A stretch of DNA of 7,722 bases, taken from a virus. Lineage: Duplodnaviria; Heunggongvirae; Uroviricota; Caudoviricetes. The notes beneath the pieces are model-generated. The model saw nothing but the letters and a program-made list of their open reading frames with translations. It did no database searches and was not told the origin of the DNA. The number at the start of each line of letters is the position of its first letter. Position 1 is the first letter of the stretch. The DNA is taken from IMG/VR virus record IMGVR_UViG_3300014846_000039. One strand, 5' to 3'. The translations under genes were made by a program, and so were the position numbers. Below are positions 1,021-4,335 of the stretch, one piece after another.

Positions 1021-1707
1021 ATGACCCCAATAAAAATATTTATGACTATTGCTGATTTCAAACGGCCTAAATTGGAGCTCCCAAACGGGGCAAACAAACT
1101 ACTACTGCACTCTTGCTGTGCTCCATGTTCCGGTGAAGTGATGGAGGCGCTTCAGGCCTCGGGAATCGACTACACCATCTTTTTCTACAACCCGAACATT
1201 CATCCTCAGAAAGAGTATTTAATTCGTAAGGATGAAAATATTCGCTTTGCTGAACAACACGGCGTGCCGTTTATCGATGCTGATTACGACACCGACAACT
1301 GGTTTGAACGTGCCAAAGGAATGGAATGGGAGCCTGAGAGGGGGATCCGTTGTACCATGTGTTTTGACATGCGTTTTGAGCGGACAGCGTTGTACGCTGC
1401 TGAAAATGGTTTCAGTGTGATCAGCAGTTCACTGGGCATTTCACGCTGGAAAAATATGCAGCAGGTTAACGAGTGTGGGCGGCGAGCTGTTGCGCATTAT
1501 CCGGGTATGGTGTACTGGGATTATAACTGGCGCAAGCAGGGCGGCTCGTCCCGTATGATTGAAATCAGCAAGCGCGAAAAATTCTATCAGCAGGAATATT
1601 GTGGCTGTGTGTATTCTCTGCGCGATACCAATCTACACCGCAAATCTCAGGGACGCCCTCTTATCAAAATTGGCCAACTCCACTACGGAAAAGAAGAGAA
1701 GGAGTGA
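1021..1707 (+). CDS. queH: Epoxyqueuosine reductase QueH-like protein (DUF208 family)
   Basis: 228-aa ORF with the N-terminal [11 protein letters not shown] cysteine motif and further conserved Cys (CTMCFD, CGC) that I associate with DUF208/QueH. No obvious Shine-Dalgarno before 1021; in-frame alternative start ATG at 1042. Assignment by motif memory only. Confidence 0.6.
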
Positions 1708-1945
1708 TTTTATGGATCACCTTTCTGATTGATTTCATATTGGCGAGGTGACGTGAGTTAAGTAGAATGGCTGCGGGGGGCTTGAGGCTATCTGTCTCAG
1801 GCATGAACACTGAAAGGCAGATAGAGAAAAGCCCCAGTTAACATTTCGCGTCCTGCAAGACGCTTAACATTAATCTGAGGCCCAATCTATGTCTCACAAA
1901 TGTAGGTTAGCCTCTTACGTGCCGAAAGGCAAGGGGAAGCAGGCT

Positions 1946-2209
1946 ATGAAGCAGCAAAAGGCGATGTTAATCGCCCTGATCGTCATCTGTTTAACCGTCA
2001 TTGTGACGGCACTGGTAACGAGGAAAGACCTCTGCGAGGTACGAATCCGAACCGGCCAGACGGAGGTCGCTGTCTTCACAGCTTTGCCAGGCATCCTCAA
2101 CGCACCCGCACTTAACCCGCTTCGGCGGGTTTTTGCATTAGTCTGGTTGACAAAAATAGAAAAATGCGAAAATATGTGGTTTACGAATTCTAAAAAAAGC
2201 GAAACTTGA
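1946..2209 (+). CDS. hokD: Hok/Gef-family membrane toxin, HokD(RelF)-like for the first 46 codons, with replaced and extended 3' end (possible pseudogene or variant)
   Basis: ATG 1946 with SD AAGGGGA at 1931-1937. Residues 1-46 (MKQQKAMLIALIVICLTVIVTALVTRKDLCEVRIRTGQTEVAVFTA) match HokD/RelF as I remember it; canonical Hok proteins are about 50 aa, but here the frame runs on to TGA 2207-2209 (87 aa) through a terminator hairpin and a promoter-like sequence. The ORF-track start at 1889 is in frame but upstream of the SD-supported ATG. Confidence 0.65.
   Translation: MKQQKAMLIALIVICLTVIVTALVTRKDLCEVRIRTGQTEVAVFTALPGILNAPALNPLRRVFALVWLTKIEKCENMWFTNSKKSET
2115..2134 (+). repeat. Direct repeat copy 1 (acccgcttcggcgggttttt), identical to 3950-3969
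   Basis: Exact 20-nt identity read directly from the sequence. Confidence 0.85.
2116..2134 (+). terminator. Rho-independent terminator-like hairpin (5-bp GC stem cccgc/gcggg, TTCG tetraloop, T5 run)
   Basis: Stem 2116-2120 pairs with 2125-2129, loop ttcg 2121-2124, T-run 2130-2134; lies inside the extended hok frame and just upstream of the cassette promoter-like element. Confidence 0.55.
2147..2176 (+). promoter_or_regulatory. Putative sigma70 promoter for the cassette (perfect -35 TTGACA, weak AT-rich -10)
   Basis: TTGACA at 2147-2152; about 17 nt downstream an AT-rich -10 candidate (aaatat 2170-2175); 35 nt before ATG 2211. The -10 is poor, so low confidence. Confidence 0.3.
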
Positions 2210-2210
2210 A

Positions 2211-2861
2211 ATGAATGAAAATCAGTTAGCTCCTTGTTGGGAATTTCAACCTTATCTTGCTGAAAACTATGTTCGCCACTTGTTGGCGGAGATCGCTAAC
2301 GTACTTGAGCAGCTGTACTATCATAAGCACGCATTAGACAGCAACTGGTCTGAAGGTGTAAGGGCTTATGATTGGGTCAGAAATCATCTTATTCAAAATG
2401 AAGATGCAATTCCTGGCCTTGAGATGATTTCCAAGGGGTTGGACTATGTAGTTGCTTTAAATAAAGTTCCGCTACAATTTACCAAAGATTGCATTAATAA
2501 CCCCAAAAAGAAACATCGTCTGCGTCGAAATAAAGTAGAGTATGAGCAGCTCTCATTGTTTGGTGATGTTGAGGCTGAGCAAGATATTACATGGCGAGTC
2601 ATAGCTGAGCCTTTTTTATCCGAAGAGGGCGATGGTGAATTAGAGTCCACACTGCCTCGTTGGGAGGTAGCTCTTGTTGGATTTAATACTTATGGTGCTC
2701 AGATTAGTATAGTTTCTCATCAATCTACAGCATCGATGCCGCTTATGCCTCTTGATTATAACACACTCCCTGACGAAGCGGAGATTAATAAGGTGCCTCT
2801 TCGTCGGCGTACGAAGGATAAAGATTTGGATGTGAGCAGTGATGGAACATCAGGTGAATAA
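2211..2861 (+). CDS. Hypothetical protein, 216 aa, no recognisable family; first gene of the inserted cassette
   Basis: ATG 2211, TAA 2859-2861; overlaps the downstream gene by 20 nt (operon-like). AT-rich codon usage (hand-counted samples about 33-38% G+C versus about 50% in flanking genes). No clear SD. Acidic protein with two basic patches (NPKKKHRLRRNK, VPLRRRTKDKD); no TM segment or catalytic motif recognised. Confidence 0.6.
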   Translation: MNENQLAPCWEFQPYLAENYVRHLLAEIANVLEQLYYHKHALDSNWSEGVRAYDWVRNHLIQNEDAIPGLEMISKGLDYVVALNKVPLQFTKDCINNPKKKHRLRRNKVEYEQLSLFGDVEAEQDITWRVIAEPFLSEEGDGELESTLPRWEVALVGFNTYGAQISIVSHQSTASMPLMPLDYNTLPDEAEINKVPLRRRTKDKDLDVSSDGTSGE

Positions 2862-3945
2862 CTTCACTGAGTATCGGGGTGATAAGCTCAAACTAGCGAG
2901 AATGGCTGTTGGGCTTTCTTGTGAAGAGTTAGCCGAAAAAATTGGCAAGACAAAGCAATTCGTTAGCAAACTGGAGAAGGGGTGCAGGCCATCGGAGCAA
3001 TGTCTTGAGTTAATATCTTCAGCGCTTATGATTAAGTCCAGTTTTCTTTTTACTGAACGAAAATACGCTCTGGAAAGTGATGTCTGCCATTTTCGGAGTA
3101 AGAAGTCCAGGACTCAAACGCTGACTAATAGTGTATTGGCCAGGGCTGAGATTCTTAATATTATAATTTCTGCTGTTGAAGGTGAAATCGAATTTCCTGA
3201 CGTTAACATACCGGAGCACCCAGGGGCTGAATTACTTACTCCGAATGATATTGAGCGAGTGGCAGAAGATTGTCGCCGTGCCTGGAATTTAGGTCTTGGC
3301 CCTATATCATCAATGGTTAAATTGGCGGAGAGTTTAGGGGTAATCGTTGCGCATGTTACGGGAGTCGATGATCGTGTTGATGCTTTTACTGTTCACAATA
3401 ACAGGCCTGTTATCATCAGGAACAATGTTAAAAAAAGCATATGTAGATTTCGCTCTGATTTAGGTCATGAATTAGGGCATTTAGTAATGCATGAGGGCAT
3501 AACGACAGGTGATAAACTTACGGAATCACAAGCCGATCACTTTTCGAGCGCCTTATTAGTTCCCAGGTTATCTTTCATTAAAGAATTTCCACGAATACGA
3601 GGTAAGCAATTCGACTGGAATGCTCTGGTTGAATTTAAACTTAGATGGAAAATCAGCCTTAAAATGTGTATTTATCGAGCCAGCGCATTAGGCTTATTGA
3701 CCCAGGAACAGGCAAGAACTGGCTATATGCATCTTAATTCCAGAGGGTATACGAGAGTTGAACCTGGTGATGAACTTTTGCGCCCTGAAGAACCCGGCAT
3801 GCTGGCCGAGGCGATTGAAATGCTGGATGATGCAACCTGGCTAAGAATTCTTATGAAAACTGGCTTGAGCCAAGATTTAATTCGTGAGTTGTTCTCCATC
3901 AACAGACCTATTACAAATCCAAGAAATATTTTCCAGATTGTTTGA
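2842..3945 (+). CDS. HTH_XRE DNA-binding domain fused to ImmA/IrrE-family (COG2856, M78-like) zinc metallopeptidase, with a C-terminal extension of about 110 aa
   Basis: N-terminal XRE-type HTH (LKLARMAVGLSCEELAEKIGKTKQFVSKLEKG); HEXXH zinc motif HELGH encoded at 3466-3480; downstream third-ligand motif typical of ImmA/IrrE (ESQADHFSSALLVP). ORF track starts at GTG 2839; the adjacent ATG at 2842 is preferred. Stop TGA 3943-3945, followed immediately by a terminator. Confidence 0.8.
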   Translation: MEHQVNNFTEYRGDKLKLARMAVGLSCEELAEKIGKTKQFVSKLEKGCRPSEQCLELISSALMIKSSFLFTERKYALESDVCHFRSKKSRTQTLTNSVLARAEILNIIISAVEGEIEFPDVNIPEHPGAELLTPNDIERVAEDCRRAWNLGLGPISSMVKLAESLGVIVAHVTGVDDRVDAFTVHNNRPVIIRNNVKKSICRFRSDLGHELGHLVMHEGITTGDKLTESQADHFSSALLVPRLSFIKEFPRIRGKQFDWNALVEFKLRWKISLKMCIYRASALGLLTQEQARTGYMHLNSRGYTRVEPGDELLRPEEPGMLAEAIEMLDDATWLRILMKTGLSQDLIRELFSINRPITNPRNIFQIV

Positions 3946-3949
3946 GTAT

Positions 3950-3969
3950 ACCCGCTTCGGCGGGTTTTT
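3950..3969 (+). repeat. Direct repeat copy 2 (acccgcttcggcgggttttt), identical to 2115-2134
   Basis: Exact 20-nt identity read directly from the sequence. Confidence 0.85.
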
Positions 3970-3970
3970 T
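3951..3970 (+). terminator. Rho-independent terminator (cccgc / TTCG loop / gcggg, T6 run) ending the cassette
   Basis: Stem 3951-3955 / 3960-3964, loop 3956-3959, T-run 3965-3970; 5 nt after the stop codon of the peptidase gene. Confidence 0.6.
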
Positions 3971-3989
3971 GTTTTTATTTTCAACGTGT

Positions 3990-4019
3990 TTGAAGTTTTG
4001 GACGGTGCCAGAATAGAAT
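3990..4019 (+). promoter_or_regulatory. Putative promoter (TTGAAG, 18-nt spacer, TAGAAT) upstream of the small ORFs
   Basis: -35-like TTGAAG 3990-3995 and -10-like TAGAAT 4014-4019; sequence-only guess. Confidence 0.25.
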
Positions 4020-4054
4020 CAAAAATACTTAAGTAGCGCGCAGGGAGAAGAGGG

Positions 4055-4276
4055 ATGGACCCCGAACAGGGGGAGTGCTATTTATCTGGAAGGATTCTGT
4101 TGATGAAAATCGAAGAATTACGTGAAATTTTTAGTGAAGATGGCCTCTATGCTGTGCGCGTTGAGAATGGGGGTATTACCTACACAGCGTTAATTCCTGA
4201 TGATCATGTAGTGTTATCTGTTGAGGCATTCATTGAATACTTGGAAAGACTCGGTTTCAAGGTAGTTCGGGAATAA
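4055..4276 (+). CDS. Hypothetical small phage protein (73 aa; 57 aa if started at ATG 4103)
   Basis: ATG 4055 preceded by purine-rich GGGAGAAGAGGG (4043-4054); alternative ATG 4103 preceded by GGAAGGA (4088-4094). Stop TAA 4274-4276. No family recognised. Confidence 0.5.
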   Translation: MDPEQGECYLSGRILLMKIEELREIFSEDGLYAVRVENGGITYTALIPDDHVVLSVEAFIEYLERLGFKVVRE

Positions 4277-4335
4277 GTTATAATACGTGAGCCAGCCTGA
4301 ACAACTGGCACCTGCTGCGCCAGCAGAGACAACCG

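What the first reader, a model, noticed from the sequence alone, without database searches (positions are those of the whole stretch)
2084..3970. AT-rich two-gene cassette (orphan 216-aa protein + HTH_XRE-ImmA/IrrE peptidase) inserted at the 3' end of hok: candidate undescribed accessory or defence module
Seen in sequence: (i) hok matches HokD for 46 codons and then diverges at nt 2084, with the frame running through a terminator and promoter-like sequence; (ii) a self-contained unit follows, with a TTGACA -35 box, two overlapping genes (2211-2861 and 2842-3945) and a terminator; (iii) hand-counted G+C of about 33-38% in the cassette versus about 50% in flanking genes; (iv) identical 20-nt terminator hairpins on both sides. 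The second gene is a confident HTH + ImmA/IrrE metallopeptidase fusion; the first gene has no recognisable family. Established knowledge: XRE/COG2856 proteins act as signal-responsive regulators or antitoxin-like partners in mobile elements, and lambdoid prophages carry variable cargo (morons, defence genes) between the replication genes and Q. Inference: this pair is a horizontally acquired module whose unknown first protein is an effector, toxin or sensor controlled by the peptidase-regulator. I cannot name it as any known system.
Basis: partly seen in the sequence, partly recalled or inferred. Interest (0 to 1): 0.85.

Follow-up and report, generated by a model that had tools for sequence, protein, structure and literature searches.

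The report
Known RosmerTA defence cassette in prophage
The two-gene cassette next to hok is a real, horizontally acquired module in an E. coli lambdoid prophage, but it is not undescribed: both proteins match the published RosmerTA toxin-antitoxin anti-phage system, so it is an ordinary member of a known kind whose toxin subfamily has not been tested.

Summary
The cassette is real. It has two overlapping + strand genes (2211-2861, 216 aa; 2842-3945, 367 aa), G+C of 41.5% against 50.5% in the flanks, and an exact 20-nt terminator repeat on each side. It is present in 237 of 5,426 complete E. coli genomes and cleanly absent from related prophages.

It is not an unknown system. PADLOC profiles call the 216-aa protein RmrT (E=4.6e-25) and the HTH-M78 peptidase RmrA (E=6e-105). 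That is RosmerTA, described by Millman et al. in 2022.

The toxin belongs to a catalogued RmrT family (PDLC03929, phrog_5786). This family is unrelated in sequence to the validated E. coli OLC-716 toxin, and its fold has no confident match. I found no test of this subfamily.

The hok divergence at 2084 is a separate 56-nt deletion, not the cassette junction. It removes the hokD stop codon and a hairpin, and it is absent from all 5,426 genomes. The true insertion point is just after the hok terminator (about 2135).

Most likely mechanism: an autoregulated toxin-antitoxin abortive-infection module carried as a prophage moron. Novelty: already known. Interest is low.

The parts
1776..1951 (+). 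Context: hok/sok regulatory region (Rfam sok family match). This is the neighbouring type I toxin-antitoxin locus, not part of the cassette.
   Evidence: Rfam RF01794, 116 bits against a gathering score of 59.
1946..2209 (+). Context: hokD reading frame that has lost its stop codon. It codes 46 native codons followed by a 41-codon read-through tail that runs across the terminator and the rmrT promoter region.
   Evidence: Pfam HOK_GEF E=1.5e-21. Translation. Alignment to intact hokD loci. This exact fusion protein is absent from the 15-billion-protein collection.
2084..2085 (.). Junction of a 56-nt deletion. It removes the last 5 hokD codons (YEPEE), the stop codon and a G+C-rich hairpin. It is independent of the cassette.
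   Evidence: Alignment A1 against G1/2 and a cassette-free prophage. A 40-mer spanning the junction has no match in 5,426 complete E. coli genomes.
2114..2134 (+). hok terminator hairpin. It is the left copy of the 20-nt direct repeat, and the cassette starts immediately downstream.
   Evidence: It is conserved in prophages that lack the cassette.
2144..2204 (+). Cassette regulatory region. It holds two tandem 28-nt repeats (2144-2171 and 2177-2204, 33 nt apart). The first contains TTGACA (2147-2152). This is the candidate promoter plus RmrA operator.
   Evidence: The repeat is found in E. coli, Enterobacter and Serratia copies. The upstream 67 nt is 91% and 87% identical where the coding sequence is 81% and 64-67% identical. 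The -10 is weak and not reported by the consensus scan.
2211..2861 (+). rmrT. It encodes the 216-aa predicted RosmerTA toxin, a soluble acidic protein with no transmembrane segment.
   Evidence: PADLOC RmrT PDLC03929 E=4.6e-25, covering 5-195 of 198 profile positions. All 60 family members hit the same model. phrog_5786 E=8e-85. There is no Pfam or NCBIfam match. pI 4.9 and maximum 19-residue hydropathy 0.84.
2842..3945 (+). rmrA. It encodes the 367-aa predicted antitoxin/regulator: XRE-type HTH (about residues 13-72), M78/ImmA-IrrE Zn-peptidase (about 176-281, HELGH at 209-213) and a C-terminal extension.
   Evidence: PADLOC RmrA PDLC03943 E=6e-105 plus 13 further RmrA models. Pfam HTH_3 and Peptidase_M78. 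29% identity, E=2e-35, to the validated OLC-716 RmrA with HELGHLV conserved. NCBIfam spr1629-family antitoxin E=1.5e-45, below its cutoff.
3950..3971 (+). The cassette's own intrinsic terminator. It is the right copy of the 20-nt repeat and marks the end of the inserted segment.
   Evidence: The same stem (ACCCGC/GCGGGT) with other loops follows rmrA in E. coli 14EC001, E. coli KL53 and Enterobacter.

Best explanation
Window 2135-3971 is a RosmerTA (rmrT-rmrA) toxin-antitoxin/anti-phage cassette. It is carried as a self-contained moron (promoter, two translationally coupled genes, terminator) in the region between the replication genes and Q of a lambdoid E. coli prophage. It sits just downstream of the hok/sok terminator.

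Proposed working:
- RmrA binds the conserved tandem repeats in its own promoter through its N-terminal XRE HTH, and it keeps RmrT inactive.
- Phage infection, or failure of ClpXP-type proteostasis, upsets that balance. The M78 peptidase domain acts as the switch.
- Freed RmrT is a soluble cytoplasmic protein. It arrests or kills the cell before the phage completes its cycle (abortive infection).

Shown here: family assignment of both proteins, an intact HEXXH motif, a conserved gene pair with overlap, mobility, presence/absence polymorphism, and a regulatory region more conserved than the coding sequence.

Inferred: toxicity, neutralisation, autoregulation, the trigger and the anti-phage phenotype.
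For: - Both proteins match Rosmer profiles: RmrT PDLC03929 at E=4.6e-25 and RmrA PDLC03943 at E=6e-105. All 60 homologues of the 216-aa protein hit the same RmrT model, the best at 3e-72.
- RmrA is 29% identical (E=2e-35) to the experimentally verified RmrA of E. coli OLC-716 over 301 residues, including the HELGHLV motif.
- The pair, with a 14-20 nt overlap, recurs in Xenorhabdus, Serratia and Enterobacter prophages. It also occurs in a different E. coli prophage that has no hok. Its position within these prophages differs.
- RmrA is more conserved than RmrT (92/72/64% against 84/63/52% amino-acid identity). This fits the published Rosmer pattern of a conserved antitoxin with diverse toxins (PMC10440598).
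- The cassette is in 237 of 5,426 E. coli genomes. In Ec-U5 and O157 644-PT8 it is precisely absent, and the hok terminator abuts the rem-like gene.
- The upstream 67 nt, with its tandem 28-nt repeat, is more conserved than the genes.
- The two natural loss-of-function alleles I saw both hit rmrT and leave rmrA intact: Q34* in CP088590.1 and an IS5 insertion in FDAARGOS_1249. That is what is expected if RmrT is the toxic partner.
- Literature: a rmrA deletion could not be transformed and the system protects against phage. Rosmer-type toxins make clpP or clpX essential.
Against: - I found no experiment on this RmrT subfamily.
- It shows no detectable homology to the validated OLC-716 toxin (BLASTP gives nothing; hhalign probability 1.1%). 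Its Rosmer membership therefore rests on its partner and on a profile library built by guilt-by-association.
- The promoter has a weak -10, and rmrT has no clear Shine-Dalgarno sequence.
- In the related PD-lambda-2 system, the HTH-peptidase itself was the toxic component (PMC9519451). The polarity is therefore not guaranteed.
- Many toxin-antitoxin modules stabilise their element rather than defend the host.
Confidence: 0.8

Rival explanations
1. The pair is a toxin-antitoxin addiction module that stabilises the prophage, with no anti-phage role. This would be the same job as the neighbouring hok/sok locus.
For: It lies directly beside another post-segregational killing locus, hok/sok. Toxin-antitoxin architecture alone does not prove defence. 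Only two Rosmer systems have published phage data, and neither has this toxin family.
Against: The module moves between prophages and positions as independent cargo. It is absent from most otherwise similar prophages. Validated Rosmer systems do protect against phage. Addiction and defence are not mutually exclusive.
Confidence: 0.12
2. The polarity is reversed. The HTH-peptidase (the 367-aa protein) is the toxic or effector component, and the 216-aa protein is its inhibitor or sensor, as reported for PD-lambda-2A/B.
For: Vassallo et al. 2022 found that overexpressing the Xre-peptidase fusion alone was toxic and that the upstream protein rescued it (PMC9519451).
Against: PD-lambda-2 has a HigB-like first gene and a required third gene. 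Neither is present here. The rmrA deletion could not be transformed in the validated Rosmer system. The natural disruptions I saw hit rmrT and leave rmrA intact.
Confidence: 0.05
3. The pair is an ImmR/ImmA- or IrrE/DdrO-style regulatory switch that controls induction or gene expression of the prophage itself. On this reading it is ordinary phage regulation, not an autonomous module.
For: The domain content matches: an XRE HTH plus an M78 peptidase. PHROGs labels the family 'transcriptional regulator'.
Against: The prophage has its own repressor/cro-type region far upstream: a RacR-like repressor, an HTH protein and YdaT. Related prophages lack the cassette altogether. It occurs at different positions, before or after Q. 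It is always paired with the RmrT-family gene, and it has its own promoter region and terminator.
Confidence: 0.03

Closest known systems
RosmerTA (RmrT/RmrA) of E. coli OLC-716, validated by Millman et al. 2022 (preprint 10.1101/2022.05.11.491447). It is probably the same type as the E101 prophage toxin-antitoxin module that makes clpP essential (Rousset et al., 10.1101/2020.05.25.114553).
   Same: It is a two-gene operon with the toxin gene first. The antitoxin is an XRE-HTH plus M78 Zn-peptidase of about 370 aa with a HELGH motif. The window RmrA is 29% identical to it (E=2e-35). Both are found in E. coli mobile elements.
   Different: The toxin families are unrelated in sequence: PDLC03929 here against PDLC03935 there, with hhalign probability 1.1%. 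The best RmrA sub-model also differs (PDLC03943 against PDLC03949). There is no phenotype data for the window's type.
RmrTA of Gordonia phage Kita (Ernits et al. 2023, PMC10440598)
   Same: It has an ImmA-type protease antitoxin with an orphan toxin, it is phage-borne, and it gives narrow anti-phage defence.
   Different: The Kita toxin has a C-terminal membrane segment and depolarises the membrane. The window's RmrT has no hydrophobic segment and is acidic and soluble, so a different, cytoplasmic target is expected.
RipAB (Spr1630/Spr1629) of Streptococcus pneumoniae, a Rosmer-family toxin-antitoxin system (10.1101/2025.09.02.673660)
   Same: The antitoxin has the same HTH plus ImmA architecture. 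The window RmrA hits the NCBIfam spr1629-family model at E=1.5e-45. The toxin is cytoplasmic.
   Different: The score is below that model's cutoff (156 against 335 bits), so the two are not equivalogs. RipA targets the DnaN clamp and depends on ClpX. Neither property is known for this toxin.
ImmR/ImmA of ICEBs1 and IrrE/DdrO of Deinococcus (established knowledge, cited in PMC10440598)
   Same: An M78 metallopeptidase is functionally coupled to an XRE HTH repressor. This is the likely mechanistic template, in which proteolysis relieves HTH-mediated control.
   Different: In those systems the protease and repressor are separate proteins that regulate element excision or the DNA-damage response. 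Here they are fused, paired with a toxin gene, and dispensable for the prophage.
PD-lambda-2 (Vassallo et al. 2022, PMC9519451)
   Same: [quoted passage not shown]
   Different: It has three components, with a HigB-like first gene and a P4-antitoxin-like third gene, and the peptidase fusion is the toxic part. None of these features is seen here.

Membership tests
RosmerTA (RmrT/RmrA) | An RmrA component: an XRE-type HTH fused to an M78 (ImmA/IrrE, COG2856) Zn-peptidase that matches RmrA profiles. | tested here: met
   PADLOC RmrA PDLC03943 E=6.2e-105, covering 2-342 of 370 positions, plus 13 other RmrA models. Pfam HTH_3 and Peptidase_M78 are both above their cutoffs.
RosmerTA (RmrT/RmrA) | An intact HEXXH metal-binding/catalytic motif in RmrA. 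| tested here: met
   HELGH at residues 209-213. It is conserved in the Enterobacter, Serratia and Xenorhabdus orthologues and aligns with HELGH of the validated RmrA.
RosmerTA (RmrT/RmrA) | An adjacent, co-oriented gene that matches an RmrT profile. | tested here: met
   PADLOC RmrT PDLC03929 E=4.6e-25, covering 5-195 of 198 positions. 60 of 60 family members hit this model. The gene lies immediately upstream and overlaps rmrA by 20 nt.
RosmerTA (RmrT/RmrA) | The gene pair is conserved as a unit across genomic contexts (toxin-antitoxin-like bicistron). | tested here: met
   The same pair, with a 14-20 nt overlap, occurs in Xenorhabdus, Serratia, Enterobacter and a second E. coli prophage type.
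RosmerTA (RmrT/RmrA) | The toxin is homologous to an experimentally validated RmrT. This is not strictly defining, because RmrTs are reported to be diverse (PMC10440598). | tested here: not met
   BLASTP against the OLC-716 RmrT gives no alignment better than E=7. Profile-profile hhalign of A5 against A8 gives probability 1.1%. The validated toxin hits different models, PDLC03935 and PDLC03932.
RosmerTA (RmrT/RmrA) | RmrT is toxic, RmrA neutralises it, and rmrA cannot be deleted. | not testable with these tools
   There is only indirect support: both natural disruptions I saw (Q34* and an IS5 insertion) fall in rmrT while rmrA stays intact.
RosmerTA (RmrT/RmrA) | The system protects against phage infection. 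| not testable with these tools
   Phage protection is published only for the OLC-716 and Kita systems.
ImmR/ImmA-type mobile-element regulatory switch | A separate HTH repressor and M78 protease that belong to the element's core regulatory region and control its excision or induction. | tested here: not met
   The HTH and peptidase are fused in one protein. The cassette is absent from closely related prophages. It lies about 5 kb downstream of the prophage's own repressor region.
PD-lambda-2 | Three genes: a HigB-like toxin-fold protein, an Xre-peptidase, and a P4-antitoxin-like third component. | tested here: not met
   The first protein has no Pfam hit and no HigB hit. No third gene lies between rmrA and the terminator.
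CapH/CapP regulators of CBASS | A separate CapH HTH and CapP peptidase located next to a CBASS operon. | tested here: not met
   There are only weak secondary hits (capP E=1.6e-14, capH E=1.5e-4), far below the RmrA scores. The window contains no CBASS genes.

The most novel reading that the evidence does not exclude
Probability: 0.3. Interest if true: 0.5.

Novelty: already known. Interest (0 to 1): 0.2.

Why it matters
For genome annotation, RefSeq labels these genes 'hypothetical protein' and 'helix-turn-helix domain-containing protein' in more than 230 complete E. coli genomes. They can be relabelled as a RosmerTA defence/toxin-antitoxin pair.

For biology, the locus adds a clean example of a moron-style defence cassette in the variable slot downstream of hokD in lambdoid prophages. 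It also points to an untested RmrT toxin family in a tractable host.

It does not reveal a new kind of system.

Tried and rejected
- Pfam and NCBIfam scans of the 216-aa protein and of 60 homologues gave no family.
- The first AlphaFold model, from 14 close homologues, was poor (pLDDT 61). A 60-sequence alignment raised it to 83.7.
- The conserved residues (D43, D93, K100, E110) do not form a canonical PD-(D/E)xK motif on the predicted strands. This is my own reading of alignment A5.
- The afdb50 structure library was unavailable.
- A profile search of the solved-structure sequences found nothing.
- Homology to the validated RmrT was tested and rejected.
- Nucleotide and tblastn searches of 50,697 phage genome records found no copy of the cassette or of RmrT.
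- Looking for cassette-bearing strain names in Millman's supplementary tables gave nothing useful, because the Rosmer table (S11) is truncated in the held copy.
- The idea that nt 2084 is the insertion junction was rejected by alignment.
- The idea that the 20-nt repeat is a target-site duplication was rejected. The cassette ends in a terminator with the same stem but different loops in other contexts, so the hairpin belongs to the cassette.
Full report
**1. Observation**

The window has two overlapping + strand ORFs, at 2211-2861 (216 aa) and 2842-3945 (367 aa). An alternative GTG start lies at 2839. RefSeq annotates the same two genes in the 99.9%-identical locus of E. coli G1/2.

The second protein carries HTH_3 and Peptidase_M78 domains, with HELGH at residues 209-213. 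The first protein has no Pfam hit.

An exact 20-nt direct repeat, ACCCGCTTCGGCGGGTTTTT, lies at 2115-2134 and 3950-3969. Both copies score as intrinsic-terminator-like hairpins.

Cassette G+C is 41.5%, with third-codon-position G+C of 35-38%. The flanks are 50.5%, with third-position G+C of 50-52%.

TTGACA is at 2147-2152. No acceptable -10 hexamer follows at 16-18 nt, and the consensus scan does not report a promoter there.

**2. The hok breakpoint is a separate event**

I aligned the window with G1/2 and with cassette-free prophages. The window lacks 56 nt between positions 2084 and 2085. The missing segment holds the last five hokD codons (YEPEE), the stop codon and a G+C-rich hairpin.

The remaining hok 3' region, including the terminator at 2114-2134, is conserved in all loci compared. 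The hok frame therefore reads on for 41 extra codons and ends at TGA 2207-2209.

A 40-mer spanning the junction has no match in 5,426 complete E. coli genomes. The fused Hok protein is not in the 15-billion-protein collection. The upstream sok/hok regulatory region is intact (Rfam sok, 116 bits).

This deletion is rare or unique. It has nothing to do with the insertion of the cassette.

**3. True boundaries, and presence/absence**

In E. coli Ec-U5 and O157 644-PT8, the hok terminator is followed directly by the sequence that in the window follows the second terminator copy (a rem-like gene). The window therefore carries an insertion of about 1.84 kb, from about 2135 to 3971, bracketed by the 20-nt repeat.

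The cassette alone is found in 237 of 5,426 genomes, and 224 records are at least 99% identical. hokD-like sequence is found in 4,753 genomes.

The segment between the hok terminator and the conserved GCCAGCCTGAACAACTGG (about 4291) is a variable slot. Its contents across strains are:
- rem only;
- 440 nt with no annotated gene;
- a split HTH plus ImmA/IrrE pair;
- rmrTA plus a rem-like ORF, as in the window;
- rmrTA alone, in 14EC001.

The terminator after rmrA has the same stem but different loops in 14EC001 (TACG), KL53 (TATAT) and Enterobacter (TGCTA). The hairpin therefore belongs to the cassette.

The exact identity with the hok terminator in this lineage is best explained by recombination within two similar hairpins. 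A target-site duplication is a poorer explanation. This point is inference.

**4. Identity**

PADLOC-DB profiles assign the 216-aa protein to RmrT (PDLC03929, E=4.6e-25, nearly full length). They assign the 367-aa protein to RmrA (PDLC03943, E=6.2e-105, plus 13 further RmrA models). RmrT/RmrA is the RosmerTA system.

[quoted passage not shown] The system defends against phage, and its rmrA deletion could not be transformed. Ernits et al. describe RmrA as HTH plus ImmA protease paired with diverse RmrT toxins. They validated a second system from Gordonia phage Kita.

The validated E. coli OLC-716 sequences are in Millman's supplementary table. The window's RmrA is 29% identical to that RmrA over 301 residues (E=2e-35), and the HELGHLV motif is conserved.

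The two toxins are unrelated. BLASTP finds nothing. A profile-profile comparison of a 60-member alignment with a 23-member alignment gives 1.1% probability. The validated toxin hits other RmrT models (PDLC03935 and PDLC03932).

PHROGs places the two window proteins in phrog_5786 (unknown function) and phrog_2439 (transcriptional regulator). NCBIfam gives a sub-threshold hit of RmrA to the spr1629-family repressor/antitoxin, which is the S. pneumoniae Rosmer antitoxin RipB.

**5. The module behaves as an autonomous mobile pair**

Homologues of RmrT with 52-84% identity are each followed by an RmrA orthologue with a 14-20 nt overlap. They occur in the following prophages, at different positions:
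- Xenorhabdus, between the replication genes and Q;
- Serratia, between Q and the lysis genes;
- Enterobacter, after DUF977;
- a different E. coli prophage with no hok nearby (KL53).

In every host the cassette has lower G+C than its flanks. RmrA is more conserved than RmrT.

The 67 nt upstream of rmrT is more conserved than the coding sequence. It is 91% identical where the coding sequence is 81% (Enterobacter), and 87% where the coding sequence is 64-67% (Serratia). It contains two tandem 28-nt repeats 33 nt apart, which is about three helical turns. This suggests a selected promoter/operator, despite the weak -10.

**6. The toxin**

An exhaustive profile search finds only 65 clusters (at 50% identity) of about 200-aa proteins. 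All the aligned members hit PDLC03929.

With the 60-sequence alignment, AlphaFold gives pLDDT 83.7 and pTM 0.73. The fold has two long N-terminal helices, a three-stranded sheet, a helix and three more strands, followed by a disordered, charged C-terminal tail.

The protein is acidic (pI 4.9) and has no hydrophobic segment. This differs from the membrane-depolarising Kita toxin.

**7. Mechanism proposed**

The cassette is an autoregulated type II-like toxin-antitoxin/abortive-infection module, working as follows:
- RmrA represses the operon through its HTH at the tandem repeats and neutralises RmrT.
- Infection, or disturbed ClpXP-dependent proteostasis, upsets the balance. The literature links Rosmer toxins to clpP and clpX essentiality.
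- The peptidase domain serves as the switch, by analogy with ImmA/ImmR.
- Free RmrT hits a cytoplasmic target.

Only the family assignments, the architecture and the conservation are shown here. The rest is inference.

There is some circumstantial support for the toxin-antitoxin polarity. The two natural null alleles I met both disrupt rmrT and keep rmrA intact. They are a Q34* codon in CP088590.1 and an IS5 insertion in FDAARGOS_1249.

**8. Rivals**

I considered three alternatives:
- a pure addiction module with no defence role;
- reversed polarity, as in PD-lambda-2;
- a prophage induction switch.

The last is disfavoured for two reasons. The cassette is dispensable cargo, and the prophage has its own repressor region.

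**9. Verdict**

The interpretation as an acquired toxin/regulator module is right. The claim that it is undescribed is wrong, because standard defence-system profiles call it RosmerTA.

The toxin subfamily is catalogued but, as far as I could find, untested, and its biochemical activity is unknown. Novelty is 'already known' and interest is low.

Noticed in passing
window 2084-2085 (hok ORF 1946-2209): A 56-nt deletion removes the hokD stop codon and a downstream hairpin. It creates an 87-aa Hok fusion that reads through the terminator to within 2 nt of the rmrT start codon. The junction is absent from 5,426 complete E. coli genomes, and the fusion protein is absent from a 15-billion-protein collection. 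It could be a strain-specific inactivation of the Hok toxin or a sequencing/assembly error.
   Followed up: yes
window 2144-2171 and 2177-2204: Two tandem 28-nt repeats (TGGTTGACAAAAATAGAAAAATGCGAAA and TGGTTTACGAATTCTAAAAAAAGCGAAA) lie 33 nt apart, upstream of rmrT. They are conserved in Enterobacter and Serratia more strongly than the coding sequence. This is a candidate RmrA operator or a pair of promoters. rmrT has no obvious Shine-Dalgarno sequence.
   Followed up: partly
window 1021-1707: The prophage carries a full-length epoxyqueuosine reductase QueH gene (Pfam QueH E=1e-65) between DUF977 and hok. A lone queuosine-pathway enzyme as lambdoid prophage cargo is unexpected. It travels with the cassette in several strains (G1/2, FDAARGOS_1249, CP088590.1).
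   Followed up: no
window 3972-4290 (ORF 4055-4276): A 73-aa ORF (phrog_340, unknown function) has a first ~200 nt of flanking and coding sequence that is 90% identical to the rem region of the K-12 Qin prophage. It then diverges, giving a mosaic rem-like gene. Its G+C is also low (41%).
   Followed up: partly
L005 3090-3928 (E. coli JNE131328); L002 3350-3800; L013 4810-4920: The slot between the hokD terminator and the conserved GCCAGCCTGAACAACTGG motif is a cargo hotspot. Its alternative contents include a split HTH gene plus a separate ImmA/IrrE peptidase gene, a 440-nt segment with no annotated gene, rem alone, or rmrTA without the rem-like ORF.
   Followed up: partly
L012 4075-4725 (CP088590.1) and L014 1732-3291 (FDAARGOS_1249): These are natural null alleles of rmrT: a Q34* nonsense codon and an IS5 insertion. 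In both, rmrA is intact. This fits RmrT being the toxic partner. CP088590.1 is deposited as a 175-kb 'plasmid' that contains this whole prophage segment.
   Followed up: partly
L006 9449-10049 and 10710-11355 (Xenorhabdus prophage): The Xenorhabdus prophage that carries the rmrTA orthologue also carries ParE/Phd and HicA/HicB pairs within 4 kb downstream. This is a cluster of toxin-antitoxin cargo around Q.
   Followed up: no
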